A stretch of DNA of 39,499 nucleotides from Shigella phage SFP20. Below, one piece after another: positions 1,949 to 34,265 of this stretch; the stretch's first letter is position 1; each line of letters begins with the position of its first letter. The position numbers and the translations under genes were made by a program. The stretch is from the sequence record OQ031076; one strand, given 5' to 3'. Below the pieces are notes generated by a model that made no database searches, had not been told where the DNA came from, and saw only the letters and a program-made list of their open reading frames with translations.

Positions 1949-4318
1949 ATGCCACTTTACACACAATCAATCAAGAACCTGAAGGGTGGCATTAGCCAAC
2001 AGCCGGACATCCTGAGGTTCTCTGACCAAGGTGAACAGCAGATTAACGGCTGGTCATCCGAAAGTGATGGGCTTCAGAAGCGACCGCCGACCGTCTGGAA
2101 GAAGAGACTTTCAGCCGTGAACTGGGTCATCCCGAACAACGCTAAGTTCCACCTGATTAACCGCGATGAGAACGAGCAGTATTACATCGTACTCACCGGA
2201 AAGGAAATCATGGTCTTTGACCTTGAGGGGAACCAGTACGCTGTTTCAGGTGTAACGGACTACGTGAACACTTCCAAGCCACGTGACGACATCCGGGTCA
2301 TTACAGTAGCTGACTACACGTTCGTAGTGAATCGGCGCACTGTGGTGGCTCAGGGGACAAATAAGGCAAACCCTACTTACAACATGAAGAACCGCGCTTT
2401 GATTAACCTTCGTGGTGGTCAGTACGGTAGATTGCTGAAGGTAGGAATTAATGGCGGTACAAAGGTTGAGCACCAGCTTCCTCCGGGAGATAACGCCAAA
2501 GATGACCCACCTAAAGTCGACGCTCAGGCTATCGGTAAGGCGTTGGTGGACCTGCTTGTCGTGGCCTATCCGAACTACACGTTCACCCTTGGGTCTGGCT
2601 ACATCGAGATTAAAGCCCCAGCAGGGACCAACATCAACTCGGTGGAGACTGAGGATGGCTATGCCAACCAGCTAATCAATGCGGTACTTGATACTGTGCA
2701 GACTATCAGTAAGCTACCTCTGGCAGCACCTGAAGGCTACATCATCCGTATTCAGGGTGAGACCAACAGCTCAGCCGATGAGTATTTCGTGAAGTATGAC
2801 TCCGCGAAGAAGACTTGGCGCGAGACTGTGGAGCCGGGGACCGTAACTGGTTTCGATGCGTCGACCATGCCGCACGCTCTGGTCAGACAGGCCGATGGGA
2901 ACTTTACGTTCCAGACTCTCGATTGGTCTGAGCGGGGAGCAGGGAATGATGAAACCAACCCGATGCCGAGCTTCGTGAACTCCACGATTAACGATGTGTT
3001 CTTCTATCGTAACCGCTTAGGGTTCCTCTCTGGCGAGAACGTCATTATGTCCCGGTCGGCTGGCTACTTTGCGTTCTTCCCTAAAAGCGTGGCGACCCTC
3101 AGTGATGACGACCCGATTGATGTGGCTGTGAGTCACCCTCGAATCTCCATCCTGAAGTATGCCGTGCCGTTCGCTGAACAGCTCCTGCTGTGGTCTGATG
3201 AGGTACAGTTCGTGATGACCAGCTCTGGGGTCCTGACCGCCAAGTCCATTCAGCTTGACGTAGGCTCTGAGTTCGCTGTGAGTGATAACGCTCGACCGTT
3301 CGCTATCGGACGCTCAGTCTTCTTCGCGGCTCCTCGCGGCTCGTTCACCAGCATTAACCGTTACTTTGCGGTGGCCGACGTGACTGACGTGAAGGACGCA
3401 GACGATACGACCGGGCATGTGCTGTCCTACATTCCTAACGGAGTGTTCGACATCCAAGGGTCCTCGACTGAGAACTTCATCACGGTGTCGACTGAAGGTG
3501 CTCCGAACAAGCTGTTCATCTACAAGTTCCTCTTCAAGGATGGCGTACAGCTTCAAGCCTCGTGGTCACACTGGGAGCTGGAGCAGGGCGAGCAGATTAT
3601 GGCCTCAGCCTGTATCGGGTCCGCTATGTACATCGTGCGTAAGCATGGCTATGGCGTGGACTTGGAGAAGCTGGAGTTCATCAAGGAGACTGTGGACATC
3701 GCTGGCGAACCGTACCGTCTACACCTTGATGGCAAAACAACTATGGTCATCCCGACTAACGCATTCAACCCTAACACATACACATCATCCTTCGACGTTG
3801 GTGCGGCTTACGGTGGAGTTTTCCCACCAGCAGGGAAGTACGTCATGGTCGACTCAAGTGGGCGCTTCGTGCAACTGCCGGACACCGTATGGTCCAACAC
3901 TCGGTGGGTGACTGTGAAGGGAGATTGGTCAGGCAAGACAGTGTTCCTCGGTCGCGTCTACAAGTTCACCTACGCCTTCTCTCGGTTCCTCATCAAGTAT
4001 GAAGACCAGAATGGGACGGTAACGGAAGACTCCGGTCGACTACAGCTTCGCCGCGCTTGGGTGAACTATCAGCGTACTGGCGCTCTGGTGATGCGTGTCG
4101 TAAACCAACAGCGTGAGTTTCTGAACACCCTGAACGGCTACAAGCTGGGACTACAGGACATCGGTCAGGTCAATATTGGTGATGGTCAGTTCCGGTTCCC
4201 AATGAACGGTGACGCTCTGCACACTCGGTTAATCCTTGAGTCAGACTATCCGACTCCATTGTCCATCGTTGGTTGCGGCTGGGAGGCTTCATACGCCCGT
4301 AAAGCCAAAGCTATCTAA
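1949..4318 (+). CDS. 12: tail tubular protein B (gp12)
   Basis: 789 aa, size and position match T7 gp12 (794 aa); RBS TAGGAGGTG upstream. Confidence 0.9.
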   Translation: MPLYTQSIKNLKGGISQQPDILRFSDQGEQQINGWSSESDGLQKRPPTVWKKRLSAVNWVIPNNAKFHLINRDENEQYYIVLTGKEIMVFDLEGNQYAVSGVTDYVNTSKPRDDIRVITVADYTFVVNRRTVVAQGTNKANPTYNMKNRALINLRGGQYGRLLKVGINGGTKVEHQLPPGDNAKDDPPKVDAQAIGKALVDLLVVAYPNYTFTLGSGYIEIKAPAGTNINSVETEDGYANQLINAVLDTVQTISKLPLAAPEGYIIRIQGETNSSADEYFVKYDSAKKTWRETVEPGTVTGFDASTMPHALVRQADGNFTFQTLDWSERGAGNDETNPMPSFVNSTINDVFFYRNRLGFLSGENVIMSRSAGYFAFFPKSVATLSDDDPIDVAVSHPRISILKYAVPFAEQLLLWSDEVQFVMTSSGVLTAKSIQLDVGSEFAVSDNARPFAIGRSVFFAAPRGSFTSINRYFAVADVTDVKDADDTTGHVLSYIPNGVFDIQGSSTENFITVSTEGAPNKLFIYKFLFKDGVQLQASWSHWELEQGEQIMASACIGSAMYIVRKHGYGVDLEKLEFIKETVDIAGEPYRLHLDGKTTMVIPTNAFNPNTYTSSFDVGAAYGGVFPPAGKYVMVDSSGRFVQLPDTVWSNTRWVTVKGDWSGKTVFLGRVYKFTYAFSRFLIKYEDQNGTVTEDSGRLQLRRAWVNYQRTGALVMRVVNQQREFLNTLNGYKLGLQDIGQVNIGDGQFRFPMNGDALHTRLILESDYPTPLSIVGCGWEASYARKAKAI

Positions 4319-14437: not shown

Positions 14438-14697
14438 CGCAGATGGACTTAGAGAAGTTCCTGTTAATGCTGGACACCGAACGTGCTCGACTCATGTTGC
14501 AAGACCTGCGGGATGACTCTAAGCGTTCGCCACAGCTTTACAACGCCATCGAGAAGCTGCTGGCTCGTCACAACTTTGTACTGAGCAAGGTGTCGGTGGA
14601 CGAGAAGCAACTGGCTGACATGGAGGCGCTGAACCGAGAGTACGACAAGGTGCTATCAGCGACCGAGGATAATGACACCGGGTATGGTGTTCAGTAA
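14434..14697 (+). CDS. 18: terminase small subunit (gp18)
   Basis: 87 aa; shares the RSPQLYNAIEKLLARH motif with T7 gp18; ATGA overlap with the holin stop. Confidence 0.9.
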   Translation: MTQMDLEKFLLMLDTERARLMLQDLRDDSKRSPQLYNAIEKLLARHNFVLSKVSVDEKQLADMEALNREYDKVLSATEDNDTGYGVQ

Positions 14698-14703
14698 GTG
14701 TTA

Positions 14704-14747
14704 GACTCAAGGTCATTACCACTATATGTAGTGGCCTTTATGATTAA
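14704..14747 (+). promoter_or_regulatory. putative RNase III processing stem-loop (R18.5 position)
   Basis: GACTCAAGGTCATTACCACTATATGTAGTGGCCTTTATGATTAAC: two-stem hairpin with conserved GACTCAAGG and GGCCTTTATGATTAAC flanks, repeated at other intergenic sites. Confidence 0.55.
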
Positions 14748-14801
14748 CACACACTACGAGCGGTGACGCTACGTGGATTCTGAGAAATGAGGAGGGCAAC
14801 T

Positions 14802-15251: not shown

Positions 15252-17011
15252 GTCAAGACTTAGCAGCGCGTCAGGCGCTTATGACTGCCCGTATGAAGGC
15301 AGACTTCGTGTTCTTCCTGTTCGTTCTGTGGAAAGCTCTGTCACTTCCTGTTCCGACTCGCTGTCAGATTGACATGGCGAAGAAGCTATCGGCTGGGGAC
15401 AACAGGCGCTTCATCTTGCAGGCGTTCCGTGGTATCGGGAAGTCCTTCATTACGTGTGCCTTCGTGGTCTGGAAGCTATGGAATAACCCGGACTTGAAGT
15501 TCATGATTGTGTCGGCCTCAAAGGAACGAGCCGATGCGAACTCAATCTTCATCAAGCGTATCATCGACCTCATGCCTCAGCTCCAAGAGTTGAAGCCTAA
15601 GCAGGGGCAGCGAGACGCAGTAATCAGCTTTGACGTAGGACCTGCCAAGCCTGACCACTCTCCTTCGGTTAAGTCCGTTGGTATCACTGGTCAGTTAACT
15701 GGTAGCCGTGCTGACATCCTGATTGCCGATGACGTAGAGGTCCCCGGTAACTCCGCTACTCAGGCAGCACGGGACCGACTGTCAGAGCTGGTGAAAGAGT
15801 TCGACGCAATCCTGAAGCCGGGTGGTACGGTTATCTATCTGGGTACTCCTCAGACCGAGATGACCTTGTATCGACAGCTTGAAGGTCGTGGTTACTCAAC
15901 TACCATCTGGCCTGCCCGCTACCCACGTGATGAGAAGGACTGGAAGTCTTACGGCGACCGTCTGGCCCCGATGCTTCAGGCCGAGCTTGAGTCCGACCCT
16001 GAGGGCTACTACTGGCTCCCTACCGATGAGGTTCGATTCGACGATGAGGACTTGAGGGAACGTGAGCTGTCTTACGGTAAGGCTGGCTTCGCTCTCCAGT
16101 TCATGCTCAACCCGAACCTTGGTGATGCCGAGAAATACCCGCTGAAGCTGCGTGACCTTATCGTAGCGGACTTGGACCCTGAGTCAAGCCCTATGGTCTA
16201 CCAGTGGCTCCCGAACCTTCAGAACAAGCGTGAGGACGTTCCTAACGTGGGACTCATGGGTGATTCCTACCACACGTATCAGACTGTAGGTTCTGCCTTC
16301 AGTTCGTACACCCAGAAGATTCTGGTCATTGACCCCAGTGGTCGTGGTAAGGATGAGACCGGGTATGCGGTACTGTATCAGCTCAACGGCTACATCTTCG
16401 TGATGGAAGCTGGTGGTATGCGCGGTGGCTATGAGGACTCTACGCTGGAGTCTCTGGCGAAGATTGGTCGCAAGTGGAAGATTAACGAGTACGTCATTGA
16501 GGGTAACTTCGGTGATGGTATGTATCTCGAACTCTTCAAGCCTGTGGCGGCTCGTATTCACCCGGCAGCAGTAACTGAGGTCAAGAGCAAGGGTCAGAAG
16601 GAACTACGCATCTGTGACGTTCTGGAGCCTATCATGGGGTCCCACAGACTCATCGTGAACTCCTCGACCATTGTGTCTGACTACCAGACTGCCGCTGACA
16701 AGGATGGCGTCCGTAACCCTATCTACTCCCTGTTCTACCAGATGACCCGTATCAGCCGTGAACGTGGGGCCTTGGCACACGATGACCGACTTGATGCTCT
16801 GGCTATCGGTGTACAGTTCTTCGTAGAGTCTATGGCTAAGGATGCCGTTAAGGGACAGCGTGAAGTCACCGAGGAGTGGCTGGAGGAACAGATGGAAGAC
16901 CCACGGAAAGGCTTTAAGTCCATCGAGACGGACTACTGGGACAATGGTGTCCGGGTCCAGTTCAATACAGATGATGACTTGGGCTTAGGGTCCTACGTAC
17001 AGTTCCACTAG
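15248..17011 (+). CDS. 19: terminase large subunit (gp19), apparent TTG start
   Basis: 587 aa; extensive identity to T7 gp19 ([134 protein letters not shown]). The track's first codon is TTG at 15248, preceded by RBS AAGGAGG. Confidence 0.95.
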
Positions 17012-17103
17012 CAGTTTGCATAAAGTACCGCTTTAGTTGCATGAATACGCACTATGTAAGTCGGTACATAACGCTCGTAACTCTATGTATTCCTTAGGAA
17101 AAT

Positions 17104-17126
17104 CTTATACCCTCACTATAGGAAAG
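17104..17126 (+). promoter_or_regulatory. phage RNAP promoter (phiOR position), CTTATACCCTCACTATAGGAAAG
   Basis: Promoter family match downstream of gene 19. Confidence 0.8.
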
Positions 17127-17301
17127 ACCCCCCGGTTACTTATAGTAAAGACTCAATGAATAATCATATGCACACTTTATGCAAGACCTTAGGAGGCAGA
17201 CTCCTGAGTTCTTACCTAAGGCTAGCACCGATGGAGAGGGTGATTGTAATCATCACACCCTCATAACTTAAGTAGACCCTAAGCGACAGGAGGTATGTAG
17301 C

Positions 17302-17460
17302 ATGGGTAAGACCAAAGCTGTTCTCAAAGCTCTGGCGATCAATAGAGCTACATACAGGTTTCTTGCTGCTGTTCTACTTGCTACTGGCGTTACTGCTGGA
17401 AGTCAGTGGGTCGGGTGGGTCGAGACTCTCGTATGTACTCTGGTGTCTGAGTGTAATTAA
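17302..17460 (+). CDS. 19.5: small hydrophobic protein (gene 19.5 position)
   Basis: 52 aa ORF (MGKTKAVLKALAINRATYRFLAAVLLATGVTAG...) with RBS GGAGG; below the 60-aa track cut-off; assigned by position. Confidence 0.55.
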   Translation: MGKTKAVLKALAINRATYRFLAAVLLATGVTAGSQWVGWVETLVCTLVSECN

Positions 17461-17492
17461 CGCCATCATGGTAACAATCAACGAAAGACGGA

Positions 17493-17534
17493 CCTAAGGT
17501 CAGTTCATAGCTGACGCTACTCTACTGACCTTAG
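17493..17534. repeat. perfect 10-bp inverted repeat (CTAAGGTCAG / CTGACCTTAG) with about 20-nt loop near the right genome end
   Basis: Read directly; no following T-tract, so not a typical terminator. Confidence 0.6.
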
Positions 17535-17697
17535 CTACTGTAGTCAAGGACTTTAGGTAACACCTTAAGAGAAGCTCACTTAGGGTCATCCTACTCACTG
17601 GTCTGCCCTAGTGTCGCCTGACCTACGGTCCTTGACCTACAGTGGCTGAGGCCTACAGTAGGGACGATGAGTTTTGGACCAAAAGTTTGAGACCACA

Positions 17698-17900
17698 TCT
17701 CACAGTTCAAGAACCTCAAGTCTCCCCATAGGCCCTCTTTCAGTCCAGACCAAAGGCCCTACCCCTAGACCTTCGGTCTAAACCTCAAGTCTTTGACCCG
17801 AAGTCGACCCGAAGTCTGGACCGATAGGGCCTATATCTTGTGGTTGGGACGATGGGTCGGGACTATATGTTGTGTCCTTGAGTCTCTATCTGTATCAGCC
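17698..17900. repeat. probable direct terminal repeat (collapsed to one copy) and physical genome end region
   Basis: TCTCACAGT at 17698-17706 matches the first bases of the T7 left end; CCTTGAGTCTCTATCTGTATC near 17875-17895 resembles the T7 TR end (CCTTGAGTGTCTCTCTGTGTCC). Boundaries approximate. Confidence 0.4.
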
Positions 17901-17905
17901 TCAAG

Positions 17906-18027
17906 TCATCACTACAGTCATCACTACAGTCATCACCTACAGTCAACCAGCCTACAGTCAATCCCTAAGTGATGGCCTACCTACAGTCACCAGACCTACA
18001 GTCAATAGACACCATGTCGACCTACAG
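17906..18027. repeat. array of short direct repeats ending in CCTACAGT (CATCACTACAGT x2, CATCACCTACAGT, and others)
   Basis: Tandem and dispersed ...CTACAGT units; positional analogue of the T7 left-end CCTAAAG repeat series. Similar units at 17620-17660 on the other side of the putative TR. Confidence 0.7.
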
Positions 18028-18241
18028 TTTATCAGAGTCCTAAGGTCTAGACTCACAGGTTATCACATCCGGTCCGTTTAGCAGTCAGAGACCATAGCTG
18101 ACTAGGGTTATTGTTGTTGGTGTCTGCCAACTGGACTCTTATTATCCATAGTCCAGACCTAAAGTCAATCACCTGTAGTCGATAATGGTCTTCCTTATAT
18201 AGTCACTGGACTACTGTATAAATTACCATGATAAATAGTTG

Positions 18242-18270
18242 TTGACAGTAGGTCTAACTTTTGGTTTAAT
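18242..18270 (+). promoter_or_regulatory. sigma70-type early promoter (A1-like): TTGACA, 17 bp, TTTAAT with upstream TG
   Basis: TTGACAGTAGGTCTAACTTTTGGTTTAAT; spacer contains GTCTAAC as in T7 A1. Confidence 0.6.
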
Positions 18271-18399
18271 AGCTTCCGTCAACACGACACGGCAACAACC
18301 GGATAGTGAAGACGCCGGGTCGGTCCGGTTAAGTAGTCAGCCTGTAAGACATACGAAAAACAGGCAACCGACAGCTAGGCGACTAGCGACAGAAAGTAG

Positions 18400-18429
18400 T
18401 TGACAAGATGTACCGACTTAAAGTAGTAT
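18400..18429 (+). promoter_or_regulatory. sigma70-type early promoter (A3-like): TTGACA, 18 bp, TAGTAT
   Basis: Downstream GTACCACATCGAAACGACAGTGAAG is nearly identical to the T7 A3 initial transcribed region (GTACCACATGAAACGACAGTGAG). Confidence 0.7.
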
Positions 18430-18554
18430 GTACCACATCGAAACGACAGTGAAGCCTAACACTGAAACAGGCTAGCGAGGCGACGACAGCCGAGCGAATG
18501 CTCTTTAACAATCTGGATAACTCTTAATGTGCGCCGATAATGCTAGTAAGCGAT

Positions 18555-18625
18555 TAACTCAAGAGACTTGTTGGCTACTGCGGGTCAGGCTCAAGATGAG
18601 CGCCTCAGGTCTCTTTCTGATAATC
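18555..18625 (+). promoter_or_regulatory. putative RNase III site upstream of gene 0.3 (R0.3 position)
   Basis: Preceded by CTCTTTAACAATCTGG, as in T7 upstream of R0.3; AACTCAAG ... TCTCTTTCTGATAATC flanks with internal inverted repeats (AGAGAC/GTCTCT). Confidence 0.5.
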
Positions 18626-18649
18626 ACTCACACTTAAAGGATACACATC

Positions 18650-19102
18650 ATGATTTACACTAACGAACCAGCCAACGTCTTCTATGTGCTCGTGTCTGCC
18701 GCTCGTGCTAACCTGTCTGATATGGCTAACATGGCCCGTCAGTTAGACCTTAAGGCACTGCTGCAAGCCGAACCTGAATACTACGGTGTGCTTGAATGCA
18801 CTGGGCTTACAGGCTGCTACCGCGAGGAGGGACAAGAGGTCGCCACTGAAGAGAGAACCTACCGTGTGCGCTGTGAGTCCAAGGCTCAAGCTATCAACGT
18901 TGCACGACTGGCCTGCAATGACTTTGAGCAAGACTGCGTGATGGTCTACAAGTCTCAGACTCACACGGCTGGACTGATGTTCTGCAAAGGCTTGGACGGG
19001 TTCAAGACCACACGTCTGAACGGGTCATTCCAGCAAGTCGATGCACCAAAGGGCGAATGCTTCACGAAAGACGCTGAAGGGCGCTTCTGGGAGGTGGTGT
19101 AA
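18650..19102 (+). CDS. 0.3: S-adenosylmethionine lyase/hydrolase (T3-type gene 0.3 anti-restriction protein)
   Basis: 150 aa; N-terminus MIYTNEPANVFYVLVSA... and motifs TGCYRE, VYKSQTHTAGL closely match my recollection of the T3 SAMase (about 152 aa); first early gene after the sigma70 promoters. Confidence 0.8.
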   Translation: MIYTNEPANVFYVLVSAARANLSDMANMARQLDLKALLQAEPEYYGVLECTGLTGCYREEGQEVATEERTYRVRCESKAQAINVARLACNDFEQDCVMVYKSQTHTAGLMFCKGLDGFKTTRLNGSFQQVDAPKGECFTKDAEGRFWEVV

Positions 19103-19103
19103 G

Positions 19104-19307
19104 ATGGTTAACTCATACCCTAATCACATCAAGCCATGGATAACGGTTGATATTGAGACCGTGGGCGACTCCAAGTTTGTGACCATACGGTCGAGCATAC
19201 ACGTTAACAAGGAGTTCAAACTTCCTCATAGCTATAGCCTGAGCTGGGGAGATTGGGAGATTCTACGGGATTCCGCTTTCCTCAAGTACGCCGGGAGGTT
19301 CTACTGA
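19104..19307 (+). CDS. hypothetical early protein
   Basis: 67 aa from the ATG at 19104 with RBS GGGAGGTGG; the track ORF 19041..19307 extends upstream into gene 0.3. Confidence 0.5.
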   Translation: MVNSYPNHIKPWITVDIETVGDSKFVTIRSSIHVNKEFKLPHSYSLSWGDWEILRDSAFLKYAGRFY

Positions 19308-19432
19308 TGTACACGATAAGCTACAGCAGTGAGCAAGCCTTCTATGACGGTCTAGTCGAGCTAATGAAGCGCGGGGCCTGCTACACGGCTAACCACCATG
19401 CGTTAACCATAACGCTGACAGGCGGGTACTGA
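19307..19432 (+). CDS. hypothetical small early protein (41 aa)
   Basis: ATG overlapping the upstream stop (TGATG); coding-like codon usage; below track cut-off. Confidence 0.3.
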   Translation: MYTISYSSEQAFYDGLVELMKRGACYTANHHALTITLTGGY

Positions 19433-19440
19433 GTGCCAGA

Positions 19441-19475
19441 CTACAGGTCATCCATGCGGGTGGCCTGACTGATTG
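19441..19475 (+). promoter_or_regulatory. putative RNase III stem-loop (R0.5 position)
   Basis: CAGGTCATCCATGCGGGTGGCCTGACTGATTG shares the AGGTCAT ... GTGGCCT ... TGATT pattern with the other candidate sites. Confidence 0.4.
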
Positions 19476-19505
19476 TCACTTAACCACAAGAAGGAAACAC
19501 ACGTA

Positions 19506-20240
19506 ATGAACGCACACGATAAAGTAATCATGAATAACCTGATGTCCCAGCTTCACGCTATCATCTGTCAGGCTGACTACAAGGTGGAGTCGCTGGGGTC
19601 TGGCATAGCTGCGCAAGACCGCTGGGGAGCCTTTGAGATACTGGCGAGGGAACATGGTTACAGGCTGTTAGGACTGGGACACTTCGCCGCTGCCTTTGAG
19701 CATGAGGACCTGCCGGGATATGCAATCAAGGTGGGCTTCAAGAAGGATGACTCAGGCGCTGCATATGCGGCCTTCTGCCGAGAGAATGAGGGTCTGGCTG
19801 GACTACCAATCATCCATCTGGTCAAGCGCTTCAGCAGGGCGTACATGGTGGCTATGGACAAGTACCGCTCACTGAATGACATCGGCGGGGGCTACTGCCG
19901 GGACGGTGAGACCTACGAGCAACGAGTCTTGAACGTGTCGTGGCGTGTAGTGAACGCAATAATAGACCAATGCGAGATGCCAGCCGCTGCACTGACTTGG
20001 TGGCTGGACAATGAGGCCCGACAAGAGTTTGCACACGTCGAGACCCAGTACATCAAGCAACTGGCGACCACAGCGCGTAAGATTCACACGTTCTTCTACG
20101 GTCTGGCGAGCTTCGACACTCACCGGGCAAACGTGATGGTCGATAACAACGGGCGCTTGATAATCACGGACCCGGTGTCTTGGACCTCAGCAGATCATCA
20201 AGACGACATGGCGAACAAGCTGAACGCAATAGCTGAATAG
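19506..20240 (+). CDS. 0.7: serine/threonine protein kinase (gene 0.7), kinase domain only
   Basis: Motifs shared with T7 gp0.7: GHFAAAFEH, IKVGFKKDDSGAAYAAFCR, ASFDTH, ITDPVS. 244 aa from the ATG at 19506 vs about 359 aa in T7; the basic C-terminal region is absent. Confidence 0.8.
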   Translation: MNAHDKVIMNNLMSQLHAIICQADYKVESLGSGIAAQDRWGAFEILAREHGYRLLGLGHFAAAFEHEDLPGYAIKVGFKKDDSGAAYAAFCRENEGLAGLPIIHLVKRFSRAYMVAMDKYRSLNDIGGGYCRDGETYEQRVLNVSWRVVNAIIDQCEMPAAALTWWLDNEARQEFAHVETQYIKQLATTARKIHTFFYGLASFDTHRANVMVDNNGRLIITDPVSWTSADHQDDMANKLNAIAE

Positions 20241-20309
20241 TGATAGACGAGAGGTCATCGAACGATAGGTGGCCTCAAAGATTATTACTTCAAACGATAG
20301 GTGAGAACT

Positions 20310-20507
20310 ATGATACCAATAGCACTGATAGTCATCGGCTATGGGCTGATACTCTGGGTCATCCTCCGGGACATCCAGAAGGCACGTAAAGTCTACAAAT
20401 TCAACTATGTGTCGCTCGGTCGCTGGACTGTGCGTCAACCAAACGGGCGCTTTATGCGTAACTTAGCGAATGTCTGGGACATCGCAACCTTAGGGAGCAA
20501 GCTATGA
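20310..20507 (+). CDS. hypothetical small membrane protein
   Basis: 65 aa with hydrophobic N-terminus (IPIALIVIGYGLILWVIL); ATG at 20310 within the track ORF 20301..20507. Confidence 0.5.
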   Translation: MIPIALIVIGYGLILWVILRDIQKARKVYKFNYVSLGRWTVRQPNGRFMRNLANVWDIATLGSKL

Positions 20508-20758
20508 GCTACAAACACAAGACCTCGCGTTACACCGTTCGTCAACAACAGGAGCGCGACCGGGTACTACAGGCAAGACTCCGGGCTGAGGGCCACAAGG
20601 CCGAGCTGATGTGTCTGGCATACGGTGGACGACCACGCACTGAAGATGGTAAACTTCTGGTCTCAGGCTGGAGGGCGATAGACCAGCGGTCAGCCATCCG
20701 TCACACGACTAAAGGCGACTTCAGTCACCTCCACGCTAACCCTTTGATATGCAAGTGA
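20504..20758 (+). CDS. hypothetical early protein
   Basis: 84 aa ORF with ATGA overlap with the upstream ORF; basic N-terminus. Confidence 0.45.
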   Translation: MSYKHKTSRYTVRQQQERDRVLQARLRAEGHKAELMCLAYGGRPRTEDGKLLVSGWRAIDQRSAIRHTTKGDFSHLHANPLICK

Positions 20759-20854: not shown

Positions 20855-23521
20855 ATGAGCGTCATTCAGCTTGAGAAGCACGACTTCTCGGACATCTCCA
20901 ACGCTATCGAGCCGTTTAACATTCTGGCTGACCACTACGGGCAGGACCTCGCAGTCAAACAGCTTCAGCTTGAGCATGAGGCATACACTGAAGGCGAGCG
21001 TCGTTTCATCAAGAATCTTGAGCGTCAGGCTGAGCGCGGGGAGCTGGCTGATAATCAGGTCGCAAGACCACTGATGCAAACTCTGGTCCCTAAACTGGCG
21101 CAAGCCGTCAAGGAGTGGCACGAGACCCAAGGGTCAACCCGTGGTAAACCTCAGGTCGCCTTCCTGAAGCTGAGCACTGAGTCGAAACCTCGTGCGCTAC
21201 TGGTCCAGCCTGAGTCGGTGGCGGTCATCGTCCTGAAGATTGCGCTCTCCAAGCTGGTCAAGCCTGAAGGCGTACCGATTACACCGATGGCCTCCGCGAT
21301 TGGTCGCACACTTGAGGATGAAATCCGCTTCGGTCGCATCCGTGACCAAGAGCAGGAGCACTTCAAGAAGACCATAGCCGAGAACCTGAAGAAACGCGCT
21401 GGCGTGGCCTACAAGAAAGCCTACATGCAAGCGGTCGAAGCCTCCATGCTGGACCAGAAGCAACTGGCTGATGCGTGGGGAACATGGTCGCCTGATGAGG
21501 CTGTACATGTTGGCATCAAGATGCTGGAGCTTCTCATCCAGTCCACACAACTGGTCGAACTGAAGCGCCACAACGCCGGGAACGCAGCGTCAGACGTCGA
21601 GATGGTCCACTTGTCGGACTTCTGGGCCAAGAAGATGGCACAGCGTGGCTACTCACTGGCAGGCATCGCCCCGGTTTACCAGCCTTGTGTCGTGCCTCCA
21701 CGTCCTTGGAACTCGGTGGTCGGTGGCGGGTACTGGGCTAAAGGTCGCAGACCTCTCCCGCTGATGCGCTTAGGGTCGAAGGCCGCTATCGCTCGCTACG
21801 AGGAAGTTTACATGCCTGAAGTCTACGAGGCAGTGAACATCATTCAGCAGACTCCTTGGAAGGTGAACAAGAAGGTTCTGGACGTAGTGAACATGGTCGA
21901 GAAGCTGAACAATACGCCTATCGCTGACATCCCACAGATGGACCCGATGAAACCTGAGGACTACAACGGGGAGACCGAGGAGGAGCTGAAGGCGTGGAAG
22001 AAAGCAGCCGCTGGAATCTATCGCCGCGAGAAGGCCCGACAGTCCCGCCGTTTGTCCCTGAGCTTCATCGTCGGACAGGCGAACAAGTTCTCTCAGTTCA
22101 AGGCCATCTGGTTCCCGTACAACATGGACTGGCGCGGTCGAGTCTACGCGGTCCCGATGTTCAACCCACAGGGCAACGACATGCAAAAGGGTCTACTGAC
22201 TCTGGCAGTCGGCAAGCCAATCGGTGCGGACGGATTCAAGTGGCTTAAGGTCCACGGTGCGAACTGTGCGGGTGTCGATAAAGTCACCTTTGAGGAGCGC
22301 ATCAAGTGGGTGGAAGACAACCATGACAACATTCTCGCAGCCGCGAAGTCTCCGATGGACAGCATCGACTGGTGGGGTCAGTTAGACTCTCCGTTCTGCT
22401 TCCTCGCCTTCTGCTTCGAGTATGCTGGAGTCATGCACCACGGGCTGAGCTACTCCTGCTCTCTGCCTATCGCGTTCGATGGGTCATGCTCTGGGATTCA
22501 GCACTTCAGCGCAATGCTTCGGGACCACGTTGGTGGACATGCGGTCAACCTGACGCCAAGCGGGAAGGTCCAAGACATCTACCGCATCGTGTCTGACGAA
22601 GTGGAGGAGCGACTCAAGGAGCTGCTGGTCAACGGTAGCGACAACGAAGTCAAGACCTTCGAGGACAAGAAGACTGGCGAGATTACTGAACGTCTCATCC
22701 TCGGGACCCGTGAGCTGGCCCGGCAGTGGCTGACCTACGGAATGTCACGCTCGGTCACTAAACGCTCTGTCATGACTCTGGCCTACGGGTCGAAGGAATA
22801 CGGGTTCGCGGACCAAGTGTTCGAGGACACCGTGATGCCAGCGATTGATGCAGGCAAGGGGGCGATGTTCACAGACCCGAGCCAAGCGTCTCGCTTCATG
22901 GCTAAGATGATTTGGGATGCAGTGAGCGTGACTGTGGTAGCTGCGGTGGACGCGATGAAGTGGCTGCAAGGCGCGGCTAAGCTGCTGGCTGCTGAGGTCA
23001 AGGACAAGAAGACCAAAGAGGTCCTGAAGCCGTGCCTCCCGGTTCACTGGGTCACGCCTGATGGCTTCCCGGTCTGGCAGGAGTACCGCAAGAAGGACAC
23101 CACACGTCTGGACCTGATGTTCCTAGGGACTTTCCGTCTGCAACCCACAGTCAACAAAGGGGCGAGCAAGGAGCTGGACAAGCACAAGCAGGAGTCAGGC
23201 ATCAGCCCGAACTTCGTCCACTCACAGGATGGCAGTCACCTGAGGAAGACTGTAGTCCACACTCACCGCAAGTATGGAGTCATGAGCTTTGCGGTCATTC
23301 ATGATAGCTTCGGGACCATCCCGGCAGACGCTGAGTTCCTGTTCAAGGGCGTCCGCGAGACTATGGTCGAGACCTACCGCGACAACGATGTGCTGCAAGA
23401 CTTCTACGAGCAGTTCGCGGACCAGCTTCATGAGACCCAGCGCGATAAGCTGCCTGAGTTACCGAAGCGTGGTAAACTGAACATTGAAGACATTCTGTCA
23501 TCTGACTTTGCATTCGCCTAA
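20855..23521 (+). CDS. 1: single-subunit DNA-dependent RNA polymerase (gene 1)
   Basis: 888 aa; extensive identity to T7/T3 RNAP (LADHYG, GERRF, RFGRIRD, LVELKRHNAGNA, QPCVVPP.PW, IWFPYNMDWRGRVYAVPMFNPQGNDM.KGLLTLA, DSPFCFLAFCFEYAG, FDGSCSGIQHFSAMLRD, RSVTKRSVMTLAYGSKE, HKQESGI.PNFVHSQDGSHLR, IHDSFGT, C-terminal SDFAFA). Confidence 0.98.
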   Translation: MSVIQLEKHDFSDISNAIEPFNILADHYGQDLAVKQLQLEHEAYTEGERRFIKNLERQAERGELADNQVARPLMQTLVPKLAQAVKEWHETQGSTRGKPQVAFLKLSTESKPRALLVQPESVAVIVLKIALSKLVKPEGVPITPMASAIGRTLEDEIRFGRIRDQEQEHFKKTIAENLKKRAGVAYKKAYMQAVEASMLDQKQLADAWGTWSPDEAVHVGIKMLELLIQSTQLVELKRHNAGNAASDVEMVHLSDFWAKKMAQRGYSLAGIAPVYQPCVVPPRPWNSVVGGGYWAKGRRPLPLMRLGSKAAIARYEEVYMPEVYEAVNIIQQTPWKVNKKVLDVVNMVEKLNNTPIADIPQMDPMKPEDYNGETEEELKAWKKAAAGIYRREKARQSRRLSLSFIVGQANKFSQFKAIWFPYNMDWRGRVYAVPMFNPQGNDMQKGLLTLAVGKPIGADGFKWLKVHGANCAGVDKVTFEERIKWVEDNHDNILAAAKSPMDSIDWWGQLDSPFCFLAFCFEYAGVMHHGLSYSCSLPIAFDGSCSGIQHFSAMLRDHVGGHAVNLTPSGKVQDIYRIVSDEVEERLKELLVNGSDNEVKTFEDKKTGEITERLILGTRELARQWLTYGMSRSVTKRSVMTLAYGSKEYGFADQVFEDTVMPAIDAGKGAMFTDPSQASRFMAKMIWDAVSVTVVAAVDAMKWLQGAAKLLAAEVKDKKTKEVLKPCLPVHWVTPDGFPVWQEYRKKDTTRLDLMFLGTFRLQPTVNKGASKELDKHKQESGISPNFVHSQDGSHLRKTVVHTHRKYGVMSFAVIHDSFGTIPADAEFLFKGVRETMVETYRDNDVLQDFYEQFADQLHETQRDKLPELPKRGKLNIEDILSSDFAFA

Positions 23522-24268: not shown

Positions 24269-24286
24269 ACCCTCACTATAGGATTA
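24264..24286 (+). promoter_or_regulatory. phage RNAP promoter (phi1.1 position), CTTAAACCCTCACTATAGGATTA
   Basis: Promoter family match. Confidence 0.8.
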
Positions 24287-24287
24287 A

Positions 24288-24327
24288 ACTCAAGGTCATC
24301 AGACTTCTGGTGGCCTTCATGATTAAC
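24288..24327 (+). promoter_or_regulatory. putative RNase III stem-loop (R1.1 position)
   Basis: ACTCAAGGTCATCAGACTTCTGGTGGCCTTCATGATTAAC; shares both flanks with the 14704 and 31548 sites. Confidence 0.55.
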
Positions 24328-24350
24328 CCTAAACTACTGGAGATTCAACC

Positions 24351-26747: not shown

Positions 26748-26939
26748 ATGACCGTCTATCGCGGAGTGTTCGGACAACTGTACGCAGTTAACCGTCATGG
26801 GATAGTATGCGTTAAACCTGAAGGCTGCGACTGGCAGCCATCCCACTATAGCCCTGAAGGTTTTCAGGACGCTATTTATAAAGGCTATGTTAAGGAGGTC
26901 AATGATGACCGTGGAGCAGAAATACATCGTGGAGCTTGA
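26748..26939 (+). CDS. hypothetical protein (gene 1.8 position)
   Basis: 63 aa from the ATG at 26748 with RBS GGAAGGAGAAGGG; overlaps the gene 2 start in another frame. Confidence 0.45.
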
Positions 26940-27066
26940 GGGTCGCGTTCAATCCTTCGAGGTCCCGGTCTACGCTAAGTCACTCGACGAGGCGACCTTA
27001 AAGTCTCAGGAATATGAAGATGCTGGTTTCGTGGTAGGCCGCATTCGCCCTGAGCAGAAGCAATAA
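26902..27066 (+). CDS. 2: host RNA polymerase inhibitor (gene 2)
   Basis: 54 aa (below track cut-off); [14 protein letters not shown] ... GFVVGRIRP matches T7 Gp2 (SFEVPIYAETLDEA ... GFEVTRVRP); RBS TAAGGAGG. Confidence 0.8.
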
Positions 27067-33775: not shown

Positions 33776-34059
33776 TGGCTATTACTAAACGTATTCGCGT
33801 GAGTTTTGACCTGAAGATGGTTGTTAGCTCAAAGGAAGAAGAGACAATGTGTCGTCAGCTTGCTGAGATGACTAAAGCCTATGCTGAGGGCGAGAAGCTG
33901 GATGGACTTCAGTTGGCTCTGGTCAAAACAGCAATCGAGTCAGGTCCTGAGTCTGCCCTTGAAATTGCCGTCAAGAAGACCATCAAGGAGGAGCTGGTAG
34001 ACGCCTTTGGTGATGACCAGTTCGGAGTATCCAACCTGCGATTCGAGGTCAAGCAATGA
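33775..34059 (+). CDS. 5.5: gene 5.5 protein (H-NS-binding protein in T7)
   Basis: 94 aa; MAITKRIRVSFDL vs T7 gp5.5 MAMTKKFKVSFDV; TAATG overlap with the gene 5 stop. Confidence 0.7.
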   Translation: MAITKRIRVSFDLKMVVSSKEEETMCRQLAEMTKAYAEGEKLDGLQLALVKTAIESGPESALEIAVKKTIKEELVDAFGDDQFGVSNLRFEVKQ

Positions 34060-34265
34060 GTGAATACTTACGGGTCCTTGCGGCCCTTAAGTCCTGCCCG
34101 AAGACCTTCCAGTCCAACTATGTGCGCAACAACGCTGCACTTGTGGCTGAGGCTGCGAGTCGTGGACATCTAAGCTGCCTGTCTATGGATGGGCGTAACA
34201 ACGGTGCGTGGGAGATTACCGCTGCTGGCACCAAGTTCCTGAACCAACACGGAGGCTGTCTATGA
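34056..34265 (+). CDS. 5.7: gene 5.7 protein
   Basis: 69 aa; near-identical to T7 gp5.7 (LKSCPKTFQSNYVRNNA.LVAEAASRGH.SCLS, GAWEITA.GT.FL, GGC). Confidence 0.9.
   Translation: MSEYLRVLAALKSCPKTFQSNYVRNNAALVAEAASRGHLSCLSMDGRNNGAWEITAAGTKFLNQHGGCL

What the first reader, a model, noticed from the sequence alone, without database searches (positions are those of the whole stretch)
19506..20240. Gene 0.7 encodes a kinase domain only; C-terminal shut-off region absent
The ORF ends about 110 residues short of T7 gp0.7 and lacks the basic Arg/Lys-rich C-terminal portion associated in T7 with host transcription shut-off, while kinase motifs (GHF, VGFKKDDSGAAY, HRANVMVD, ITDPVS) are retained. The following ORFs (20310-20507, 20504-20758) do not resemble the missing segment.
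Basis: partly seen in the sequence, partly recalled or inferred. Interest (0 to 1): 0.45.

Follow-up and report, generated by a model that had tools for sequence, protein, structure and literature searches.

The report
Kinase-only T7-type gene 0.7
This T7-like phage carries an intact, probably active version of the T7 early protein kinase that naturally lacks the DNA-binding host shut-off tail; this short form is normal for its phage genus, so the finding is correct but ordinary.

Summary
Window 19506-20240 (+) encodes a 244-aa homologue of the T7 gp0.7 kinase (T7K). In the alignment it ends at T7 residue R242, the published boundary between the kinase domain (1-242) and the shut-off (SO) domain (243-359).

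It is not a frameshift or truncation artefact:
- The ORF ends in three consecutive in-frame stops.
- These stops lie inside a conserved T3/T7-type RNase III-like hairpin.
- A profile of 57 SO domains finds nothing in any frame of the window, although it finds T7 gene 0.7 at E=1.4e-26.
- The two downstream ORFs are unrelated, genus-wide genes.

The short form is normal for the lineage. The window is a Kayfunavirus genome, 95.6% identical to Shigella phage SFP21B. The same ~244-aa kinase occurs in 42 GenBank phage records and in more than 40 protein clusters. It has its own PHROG family (15752) and also occurs in Caroctavirus CR8.

All family-invariant catalytic residues are kept, and a confident AlphaFold model has a protein-kinase-like fold. 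The most likely function is an early, promiscuous Ser/Thr/Tyr kinase without SO-mediated transcription shut-off or DNA targeting. A gp2-like RNA polymerase inhibitor is present elsewhere in the window.

Whether SO was lost or never gained is unresolved. Interest is low.

The parts
19425..19486 (+). RNase III-like processing hairpin just upstream of gene 0.7 (core ACAGGUCAUC...GGUGGCCUG)
   Evidence: Folds at -26.3 kcal/mol, z=-2.0. Its core sequence and hairpin-with-internal-loop shape match the annotated T3 site R1. Cleavage was not tested.
19490..19495 (+). Shine-Dalgarno-like GAAGGA, 10 nt before the ATG
   Evidence: Read directly from the sequence. Homologues are annotated from the same start, giving 244 aa.
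19506..20240 (+). Gene 0.7: 244-aa kinase-only homologue of the T7 protein kinase (T7K/gp0.7)
   Evidence: PHROG 15752 E=1.3e-105, matching 1-244 to profile 18-260/260; PHROG 2828 (T7 type) matched only at profile 48-226/366. 91.8% identical to the SFP21B 'protein kinase'. AlphaFold2 pLDDT 91.4. Foldseek PDB hits are all protein-kinase-like folds.
19671..19685 (+). Glycine-rich loop G56-L-G58-H-F60 (T7 G74-N-G76-H-F)
   Evidence: G56, G58 and F60 are invariant in 55 homologues. T7 G76, the site of the catalytically dead G76F mutant in PMC13645617, corresponds to window G58.
19728..19730 (+). Invariant Lys75 in IKVGFKK (candidate ATP-binding lysine)
   Evidence: Invariant column. The role is inferred from kinase-fold knowledge.
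20115..20132 (+). Catalytic-loop-like D204-T-H206-R-A-N209
   Evidence: D204, H206 and N209 are invariant in 55 homologues.
20169..20180 (+). DPV motif (DFG-like) D222-P-V224 followed by S225 (T7 D213-P-V215, S216 autophosphorylation site)
   Evidence: Invariant columns. Correspondence to T7 residues 213-216. Role of the motif and of S216 from PMC13645617.
20238..20246 (+). Three consecutive in-frame stop codons, TAG TGA TAG
   Evidence: Relatives end ...NAIAE-TGA-TAG at the same place.
20239..20290 (+). RNase III-like processing hairpin that starts at the stop codons of gene 0.7
   Evidence: In the 77-nt fold of 20236-20312: -21.5 kcal/mol, z=-4.18, 0 of 200 shuffles fold as well. Shape and core match the annotated T3 sites R0.5 and R1. 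The stem is kept in SFP21B and GW1 despite several substitutions, one pair changing on both sides (C-G to U-A). The same hairpin occurs in kinase-less K1F at 1768-1839.
20310..20507 (+). orfA: 65-aa basic protein with a hydrophobic N-terminal stretch (candidate membrane protein), unrelated to the shut-off domain
   Evidence: PHROG 2385 E=2.3e-29. Homologue of K1F gene '0.6'. The CR8 counterpart has a predicted transmembrane helix. It is in the same frame as gene 0.7 but separated by four stops.
20504..20758 (+). orfB: 84-aa basic (pI 10.3) early protein, unrelated to the shut-off domain
   Evidence: PHROG 7066 E=1.6e-40. The 120 homologues listed are all standalone, 83-139 aa. hhalign against the SO profile gives probability 0.1%. 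Present in 217 phage records, including kinase-less K1F. AlphaFold2 gives three helices at pLDDT 72, with no PDB match.
20855..23521 (+). Gene 1: T7-type single-subunit RNA polymerase (context; marks gene 0.7 as lying in the early region)
   Evidence: 888-aa ORF. Annotated as DNA-directed RNA polymerase in SFP21B and GW1.
26902..27066 (+). gp2-like inhibitor of host RNA polymerase (context: another route to host transcription shut-off is kept)
   Evidence: 87% identical to SFP21B_030. PHROG 1307 'RNA polymerase inhibitor' E=5.4e-24.

Best explanation
Window 19506-20240 is a genuine, complete early gene of a Kayfunavirus (K1F-like, T7 supergroup) phage. It encodes only the kinase domain of the T7 gp0.7 protein kinase family.

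Shown here:
- It is homologous to T7K over the whole kinase domain.
- It keeps every family-invariant residue: the glycine-rich loop, Lys75, D204/H206/N209, the DPV motif and Ser225.
- It is predicted with high confidence to adopt a protein-kinase-like fold.
- It stops at the residue aligned with T7 R242, where the basic DNA-binding shut-off (SO) domain starts in T7.
- No SO-like sequence exists anywhere in the window.
- The gene sits between two T3/T7-type RNase III-like hairpins, the second of which contains its stop codons.

Inferred:
- The protein is made early from host-polymerase transcripts. It acts as a promiscuous, self-limiting Ser/Thr/Tyr kinase on host proteins, including defence proteins, as T7K and the T7K delta-SO mutant do.
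- Because it lacks SO, it should not shut off host transcription by itself and should be much less toxic.
- It should also lack the DNA-tethered bias towards nucleic-acid-binding substrates.
- Host RNA polymerase inhibition would be left to the gp2-like protein (26902-27066). A neighbouring ORF (34056-34262) sits where T7 gene 5.7 lies, but its function is unassigned.

The kinase-only architecture is the normal, selectively maintained state in this lineage, not a defect of this genome.
For: Length and boundary:
- 244 aa against 359 aa (T7) and 369 aa (T3). The stop aligns with T7 Q243.
- Published domains are kinase 1-242 and SO 243-359. [quoted passage not shown]

Lineage-wide conservation:
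- SFP21B and GW1 have 244 aa.
- Every complete protein cluster with at least 54% identity is 229-244 aa, with 22-23 residues after the DPV aspartate.
- 42 GenBank phage records carry it, 39 of them covering at least 80% of the query.
- Caroctavirus CR8 has a 242-aa version at 55% identity, in the same slot.
- It has its own PHROG family, 15752, matched end to end.
- Purifying selection: 27 synonymous against 20 non-synonymous codon differences with SFP21B, and 54 against 33 with GW1. My rough dN/dS estimate from these counts is about 0.2.

No hidden SO domain:
- tblastn best E is 0.49.
- The SO HMM run with --max against the six-frame translation gives best E 3.7. The positive control on T7 gives 1.4e-26.
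- Four in-frame stops follow the ORF.
- The conserved hairpin over the stop codon keeps its stem in SFP21B and GW1 despite substitutions, and also occurs in kinase-less K1F.

Catalytic competence:
- All 35 invariant columns are kept.
- AlphaFold2 pLDDT is 91.4 and pTM 0.87.
- Foldseek PDB hits are aminoglycoside phosphotransferases and PknB, Stk1 and ULK1 kinases.

Other shut-off genes: a gp2-like protein is present, together with gp5.5-like and adjacent ORFs.
Against: - No experiment on any natural kinase-only Studiervirinae kinase was found. The BASEL phages tested in PMC13645617 that I could check carry the long form (Bas64 is a Teseptimavirus with a 358-aa kinase). Activity and promiscuity are therefore inferred from conservation.
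- The alignment of the last ~12 residues to T7 231-242 rests on weak similarity, anchored on the D-E-L motif in SFP21B and GW1. The boundary is good to within a few residues rather than proven to the residue.
- The Ser/Thr/Tyr content of early proteins (13.8%) is not lower than that of middle proteins (13.6%). The proposed genomic signature of a hyperpromiscuous kinase is therefore not evident here.
- In T7 and JSS1, removing SO cuts phosphorylation to about 31% and abolishes anti-Dnd activity. A kinase-only protein may thus be a weaker anti-defence factor than assumed.
Confidence: 0.85

Rival explanations
1. The short ORF is an artefact or a recent pseudogene. A sequencing frameshift, or a nonsense mutation like the T7 JS78 amber, would have cut off a T7-like C-terminal domain whose remains lie downstream.
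For: - The truncation point coincides with the T7 kinase/SO boundary, as a nonsense mutant would.
- orfA is in the same reading frame as gene 0.7.
Against: - The length and terminus are identical in 42 phage records and in more than 40 protein clusters down to 54% identity, and in a second genus.
- Three consecutive stops plus a fourth follow the ORF.
- No SO-like sequence is found in any frame.
- The downstream ORFs are conserved independent genes, present even in kinase-less K1F.
- The stop codon lies inside a conserved processing hairpin.
Confidence: 0.02
2. The shut-off or DNA-targeting function is supplied in trans by one of the small basic early proteins encoded just downstream (orfA, pI 11.0, or orfB, pI 10.3). 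The system would then be a split version of T7K.
For: - Both downstream proteins are strongly basic and lie directly after the kinase, in the same early transcription unit.
- The T7 SO domain is also basic (pI 11.3) and about 117 aa, comparable to the 108-aa orfB versions in SFP21B and GW1.
- CR8 keeps the same kinase-orfA-orfB order.
Against: - No sequence or profile similarity: hhalign probability 0.1%, BLASTP not significant, and no PHROG 2828 hit.
- orfB is in 217 phage records against 42-45 for the short kinase, and both orfA and orfB are in kinase-less K1F. They are therefore not linked to the kinase.
- No orfB homologue is fused to a kinase.
- The orfB model (pLDDT 72) has no structural match.
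- orfA looks like a membrane protein.
Confidence: 0.06
3. The gene is a degenerate, catalytically inactive kinase remnant (a pseudokinase) kept for another role or on its way to loss. K1F and CR44b do without it.
For: - The gene is accessory. It is absent from K1F and from CR44b (PMC4038870).
- It is found in only about a fifth of the Kayfunavirus-type records.
Against: - All 35 family-invariant residues are intact, including the glycine-rich loop, Lys75, D204/H206/N209 and DPV-S.
- The codon differences indicate purifying selection.
- The model shows a confident, complete kinase fold.
Confidence: 0.05

Closest known systems
T7 gp0.7 / T7K (UniProt P00513; PHROG 2828; Pfam PF27024 Phage_T7_kinase) and its T3, Bas64 and JSS1_004 homologues
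   Same: - Homologous kinase domain, about 33-40% identity.
- The same invariant glycine-rich loop, lysine, D-x-H-x-x-N and DPV-S motifs.
- The same early-region position upstream of gene 1, with RNase III-type sites around it.
   Different: - It lacks the whole 117-aa basic SO domain (T7 243-359) that binds DNA, shuts off host transcription, is toxic and biases the kinase towards nucleic-acid-binding substrates.
- It lacks about 20 N-terminal residues.
- It has an insertion of about 27 residues in the helical lobe.
- Two extra small genes lie between it and gene 1.
Engineered or mutant T7K lacking SO (T7 delta-SO, residues 1-242, PMC13645617; JSS1 delta-SO, PMC12345140; the classical JS78 amber mutant, recalled from memory and not checked here)
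   Same: The end point is the same in the alignment: window E244 aligns with T7 R242. The architecture, kinase domain only, is the same.
   Different: - Those are laboratory truncations of a two-domain protein. They show reduced phosphorylation (about 31% of phosphopeptides) or loss of anti-Dnd activity.
- The window protein is a natural form that has been maintained for a long time, is only about 33% identical to T7K, and may be adapted to work without SO. This has not been tested.
PHROG 15752 proteins: the 'protein kinase' of Shigella phages SFP21B and SFPH2, Cronobacter phages GW1 and Dev2 (gp0.5), Escherichia phage IMM-002 and Citrobacter phage CR8 (0.7)
   Same: The family, length (242-244 aa), terminus and genomic slot are the same, at 55-92% identity. 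The window gene is simply another member.
   Different: Nothing of substance. The window has an extra TAG codon before the shared TGA-TAG stops. Several RefSeq entries carry the T7-derived label 'inhibitor of host transcription', which probably does not apply to these SO-less proteins.
T7K homologues of jumbophages (Munch, G17) and prophages described as having lost the SO domain (PMC13645617)
   Same: They too have a kinase domain without SO. In the 50%-identity representative library, kinase-only is common: 59 of the 138 representatives that could be scored.
   Different: Those are distant lineages with a less conserved DPV valine. The window protein keeps the full Autographiviridae-type ITDPVS motif and sits in a T7-like early region.

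Membership tests
T7 gp0.7-type phage protein kinase (Pfam PF27024 Phage_T7_kinase; PHROGs 15752 and 2828) | Significant sequence similarity across the kinase domain | tested here: met
   PHROG 15752 E=1.3e-105 over 1-244; PHROG 2828 E=1.7e-52. phmmer hits to T7- and T3-type kinases at 1e-30 to 1e-39, all carrying precomputed PF27024. The local Pfam copy lacks this model and gave no hit.
T7 gp0.7-type phage protein kinase (Pfam PF27024 Phage_T7_kinase; PHROGs 15752 and 2828) | Conserved catalytic motifs: glycine-rich loop GxGxF, VIKVGFKK lysine, FDxHxxN loop, and the DPV (DFG-like) motif followed by the autophosphorylated Ser | tested here: met
   G56, G58, F60, K75, D204, H206, N209, D222, P223, V224 and S225 are all invariant columns and all present. 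Mapping to T7 G76 and D213-S216. Motif roles from PMC13645617.
T7 gp0.7-type phage protein kinase (Pfam PF27024 Phage_T7_kinase; PHROGs 15752 and 2828) | Protein-kinase-like bilobal fold | tested here: met
   AlphaFold2 pLDDT 91.4, pTM 0.87. Foldseek against the PDB gives 145 hits at E<=0.001; all 50 listed are aminoglycoside phosphotransferases or protein-kinase domains, though with low TM-scores of 0.3-0.39. No solved close relative was found by sequence.
T7 gp0.7-type phage protein kinase (Pfam PF27024 Phage_T7_kinase; PHROGs 15752 and 2828) | Early-region gene upstream of the phage RNA polymerase gene | tested here: met
   It lies between the SAM hydrolase (18650-19102) and gene 1 (20855-23521).
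T7 gp0.7-type phage protein kinase (Pfam PF27024 Phage_T7_kinase; PHROGs 15752 and 2828) | Ser/Thr/Tyr phosphotransfer activity on host proteins | not testable with these tools
   Needs a kinase assay or phosphoproteomics. No published test of a PHROG 15752 member was found.
Two-domain T7K architecture (kinase + shut-off/DNA-binding domain) | C-terminal basic SO domain homologous to T7 residues 243-359 | tested here: not met
   The protein ends at the T7 R242 equivalent. The SO HMM and tblastn find nothing in six frames, and the positive control works. PHROG 2828 is matched only at profile positions 48-226 of 366.
Two-domain T7K architecture (kinase + shut-off/DNA-binding domain) | Kinase-independent shut-off of host transcription, and toxicity | not testable with these tools
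   Predicted absent because the responsible domain is absent. The RefSeq label 'inhibitor of host transcription' on relatives is transferred from T7.
T3/T7-type RNase III processing sites of early mRNA | Hairpin of about 50 nt with an internal loop and a conserved core (AGGUCAU...GGCCU) at the borders of early cistrons | tested here: met
   19425-19486 and 20239-20290 match the annotated T3 sites R1 and R0.5 in sequence and shape. The stem is kept in relatives despite substitutions. Further copies start near 14695 and 24280.
T3/T7-type RNase III processing sites of early mRNA | Cleavage by host RNase III | not testable with these tools
   Needs in vitro cleavage or mapping of transcript ends.

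The most novel reading that the evidence does not exclude
The kinase-only form is not a degenerate T7K. It would be the ancestral, or a horizontally acquired, module: an accessory cassette bracketed by RNase III sites that moves among Kayfunavirus and Caroctavirus early regions.

On this reading, the SO domain was a later addition in the T7/T3/K11 lineages. Doing without SO would be adaptive. It would keep broad anti-defence phosphorylation while avoiding abortive-infection systems that fire on host transcription shut-off, such as ShosTA, which is triggered by T7 Gp0.7 (PMC11961720).
Probability: 0.2. Interest if true: 0.45.

Novelty: already known. Interest (0 to 1): 0.2.

Why it matters
The practical value is mainly a correction of annotation. 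Proteins of this short family are labelled in RefSeq with the full T7 description, including 'inhibitor of host transcription', although the domain responsible for that function is absent.

Biologically, a long-maintained natural delta-SO kinase inside the T7 supergroup is a ready-made comparison for recent work on the SO domain. That work shows that SO tethers T7K to DNA, raises phosphorylation, is toxic, and triggers at least one defence system. Kayfunavirus phages with and without gene 0.7 could therefore be used to ask what the bare kinase domain contributes to anti-defence.

None of this is surprising to a specialist.

Tried and rejected
- **Frameshift or read-through restoring a long ORF: rejected.** There are four in-frame stops and no SO signal in any frame.
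- **Downstream ORFs as a detached SO domain: rejected.** BLASTP is not significant and hhalign gives probability 0.1%. No homologue is fused to a kinase. The orfB family is genus-wide and independent of the kinase.
- **orfB structure as a lead to a DNA-binding role: led nowhere.** The AlphaFold2 model has pLDDT 72 and three helices. No Foldseek PDB match is better than E=5.
- **Local Pfam-A scan: uninformative.** It gave no hit for the kinase because that copy lacks PF27024.
- **Profile search of the PDB: no solved relative**.
- **Ser/Thr/Tyr depletion of early proteins as an indirect sign of a hyperpromiscuous kinase: inconclusive.** Early 13.8%, middle 13.6%, late 16.3%.
- **Loss versus never gained: unresolved.** A midpoint-rooted neighbour-joining tree of 138 kinase cores puts the window clade outside the SO-bearing clade. 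Only 64% of 200 bootstraps keep it with at least 10 SO-free taxa apart from all SO-bearing ones, and 22% leave its position open.
- **Literature on JS78: nothing relevant in the held library**. That point therefore rests on memory only.
- **Supplementary tables of PMC13645617: not held**. I could not check whether PHROG 15752-type proteins were in their homologue set.
- **BASEL accessions: one was a wrong lead.** MZ501110.1 is an unrelated Seuratvirus. Bas64 is MZ501081.1 and carries the long form.

Full report
**What the window is**

The 39.5-kb window is an essentially complete, circularly permuted genome of a T7-like phage of the genus Kayfunavirus (Studiervirinae).
- Over 1-25000 it is 95.6% identical to Shigella phage SFP21B at 96% coverage, and it is collinear with that record.
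- The region of the finding lies in the early region. The order is SAM hydrolase (18650-19102), two small ORFs, gene 0.7 (19506-20240), two small ORFs (20310-20507 and 20504-20758), then the T7-type RNA polymerase (20855-23521).

**Checking the observation**

The ORF at 19506-20240 starts at an ATG 10 nt after GAAGGA and encodes 244 aa.
- T7 gp0.7 is 359 aa and T3 gp0.7 is 369 aa.
- In a MAFFT alignment the last residue, E244, sits opposite T7 R242, and the stop sits opposite Q243.
- This is the boundary used in the recent T7K study. There the kinase domain is residues 1-242 and the shut-off (SO) domain is Gln243-Gly359. [quoted passage not shown]
- The alignment of the last dozen residues is weak. 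It is anchored on a D-E-L motif in the closest relatives, so I take the coincidence as good to within a few residues.
- The missing T7 segment is 117 aa with pI 11.3. The window protein has pI 5.8.

**Is it an artefact?**

No, for five reasons.
- The ORF ends TAG-TGA-TAG, and a fourth in-frame TAG precedes the next gene.
- tblastn of the T7 and T3 C-terminal segments against the window gives nothing better than E=0.49.
- I built an HMM from 57 SO domains of long homologues and ran it with all filters off against every six-frame segment of the window. It gives nothing better than E=3.7. The same HMM finds T7 gene 0.7 in a six-frame translation at E=1.4e-26.
- The stop codons are part of a hairpin (20239-20290; -21.5 kcal/mol, z=-4.18). 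It matches the annotated RNase III sites of T3 in core sequence and in its hairpin-with-internal-loop shape.
  - Its stem is kept in SFP21B and GW1 despite several substitutions, including one pair changed on both sides.
  - It also occurs in kinase-less K1F behind a different gene.
  - A second such hairpin lies just upstream of gene 0.7 (19425-19486), so the gene is a cassette bracketed by two putative processing sites.
- The downstream ORFs are independent, conserved genes.
  - orfA belongs to PHROG 2385 and is homologous to K1F '0.6'. orfB belongs to PHROG 7066.
  - The 120 orfB homologues listed are all standalone proteins of 83-139 aa.
  - The orfB family profile does not match the SO profile (hhalign probability 0.1%).

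**How typical is the short form?**

It is fully typical of the lineage.
- SFP21B and GW1 have 244-aa kinases.
- In the 5.8-billion-protein collection, every complete homologue with at least 54% identity is 229-244 aa, with 22-23 residues after the DPV aspartate. The long type (366-402 aa) appears only at 44% identity or less.
- In GenBank phages, 42 records carry the short type and 39 of them cover at least 80% of the query. They come from phages isolated on Salmonella, Enterobacter, Shigella, Cronobacter, Klebsiella, Escherichia and Citrobacter.
- Citrobacter phage CR8, from another genus (Caroctavirus), has a 242-aa version at 55% identity in the same slot, followed by orfA- and orfB-like genes.
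- PHROGs already separates the short family (15752, profile length 260, matched end to end at E=1.3e-105) from the T7 family (2828, profile length 366, matched only at positions 48-226).
- The codon differences indicate purifying selection: 27 synonymous against 20 non-synonymous with SFP21B, and 54 against 33 with GW1.
- The gene is accessory within the group.
  - K1F lacks it, and CR44b lacks it (PMC4038870).
  - orfB is found in 217 phage records, against 42-45 for the kinase.

**The wider family**

A full HMMER scan of 1.84 billion representatives finds 338 relatives.
- Of the 138 best hits in which the kinase core could be delimited, 36 have a recognisable SO domain, 59 are kinase-only and 43 have other C-terminal extensions.
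- SO-less kinases also arise inside the long-type clade. P0059 (247 aa) lies in an ocr-type T7-like contig only 85 bp upstream of the RNA polymerase gene, with no SO signal.
- A midpoint-rooted neighbour-joining tree places the window clade outside the clade that holds all SO-bearing kinases. Bootstrap support for that separation is only 64%.
- Whether Kayfunavirus lost SO or never had it therefore stays open.

**Is the kinase likely active?**

Probably yes, but this is inferred.
- All 35 columns that are invariant across 55 short and long homologues are kept. They include the glycine-rich loop (G56, G58, F60), K75, D204/H206/N209, and D222-P223-V224 with S225.
- Window G58 corresponds to T7 G76, the site of the catalytically dead G76F mutant. 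The DPV-S motif corresponds to T7 213-216, the DFG-like motif and the inhibitory autophosphorylation site.
- An AlphaFold2 model built on this alignment is confident (pLDDT 91.4, pTM 0.87). Only the terminal helix 229-242 is weaker.
- Foldseek against the PDB returns only protein-kinase-like folds, namely aminoglycoside phosphotransferases and kinases such as PknB, Stk1 and ULK1. TM-scores are low.
- No solved close relative exists by sequence.

**Most likely mechanism**

The protein would be an early, promiscuous, self-limiting Ser/Thr/Tyr kinase. Without SO it should lack three properties of T7K: DNA tethering, the resulting bias and boost towards nucleic-acid-binding targets, and kinase-independent transcription shut-off with its toxicity.
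- In T7, delta-SO leaves about 31% of phosphopeptides. In JSS1, delta-SO abolishes anti-Dnd activity.
- Host RNA polymerase inhibition can still come from the gp2-like protein at 26902-27066 (PHROG 1307, E=5.4e-24). A gp5.5-like H-NS inhibitor is also present, and the adjacent ORF sits where T7 gene 5.7 lies, although its PHROG has no assigned function.
- T7 Gp0.7 triggers the ShosTA abortive-infection system through transcription shut-off (PMC11961720). A kinase without SO might avoid such sensors. This is speculation.
- I found no experiment on a natural kinase-only Studiervirinae kinase. Bas64, tested in PMC13645617, is a Teseptimavirus with a 358-aa kinase.

**Comparison with what is known, and verdict**

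The gene is a member of the T7 gp0.7 kinase family. Sequence, motifs, fold and genomic position all meet the membership tests.
- It is not a member of the two-domain T7K architecture, because the SO domain was tested for and is absent.
- It belongs to an already catalogued short subfamily (PHROG 15752) and is 92% identical to an annotated GenBank protein.
- One useful by-product: the RefSeq label 'inhibitor of host transcription' on members of this subfamily is probably an over-transfer from T7.

Novelty: already known. Interest: 0.2.

Noticed in passing
window 14695-14755, 19425-19486, 20239-20290, 24280-24340: Four T3/T7-type RNase III-like hairpins share the core AGGUCAU...GGCCU. Two resemble T3 R0.5 (AACUCAAGGUCAU...GGCCUUxAUGAUUAAC) and two resemble T3 R1. 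The pair at 19425 and 20239 brackets gene 0.7, so the kinase gene looks like a self-contained cassette between two processing sites.
   Followed up: partly
L007 (Salmonella phage ST37, OQ860975.1) 416-1345; equivalent to window 19006-19656 deleted: In Salmonella phages ST34, ST35 and ST37, a ~650-bp deletion joins the N-terminal part of the SAM hydrolase gene to the kinase gene from about residue 51. The result is a 309-aa ORF annotated only as 'S-adenosyl-L-methionine hydrolase'. It still contains the whole kinase core from the glycine-rich loop onwards.
   Followed up: partly
L006 (phage K1F, NC_007456.1) 2262-2465: K1F, the type species of the genus, has no gene 0.7. It does have an unannotated homologue of orfB (79% identity) in the gap between its gene '0.6' (homologous to orfA) and gene 1.
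   Followed up: yes
window 20504-20758: orfB is 84 aa here but 108 aa in the closest relatives SFP21B and GW1. The window version lacks about 24 N-terminal residues and starts at an ATG that overlaps the orfA stop. Versions of 83-86 aa, 108 aa and 130-139 aa all occur in the family. The C-terminal GDFSHLHANPLICK is almost invariant but is predicted to be disordered. Function is unknown.
   Followed up: partly
RefSeq records NC_048161.1, NC_048071.1, NC_048025.1, NC_023558.1, NC_023548.1 (relatives): The short kinases are annotated 'protein kinase; inhibitor of host transcription; positively regulates RNaseIII; negatively on RNaseE', which is copied from T7. The same records call the phage RNA polymerase 'N4-like RNA polymerase' and the SAM hydrolase 'SAM-dependent methyltransferase'. 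These labels look like over-transferred or wrong names.
   Followed up: no
L010 (Logan SRR13517634 contig, 41.3 kb) 2501-3244: An ocr-type T7-like phage from the long-kinase clade carries a 247-aa kinase that ends 11 residues after the DPV aspartate. An RNase III-like hairpin follows directly, and the RNA polymerase gene starts 85 bp later. This is an independent natural loss of the SO domain.
   Followed up: partly
window 20238-20240 versus L001/L002: Relative to SFP21B and GW1 the window has a 3-nt insertion at the end of gene 0.7. It changes GAG-TGA-TAG to GAA-TAG-TGA-TAG, which adds a third stop codon without changing the protein end.
   Followed up: yes
window 1-39499: The window starts at the major capsid gene and carries the terminase-to-early-region junction (about 17010-18650) in its middle. 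It is therefore a permuted assembly of a terminally redundant T7-like genome, with the same permutation as the SFP21B record.
   Followed up: no
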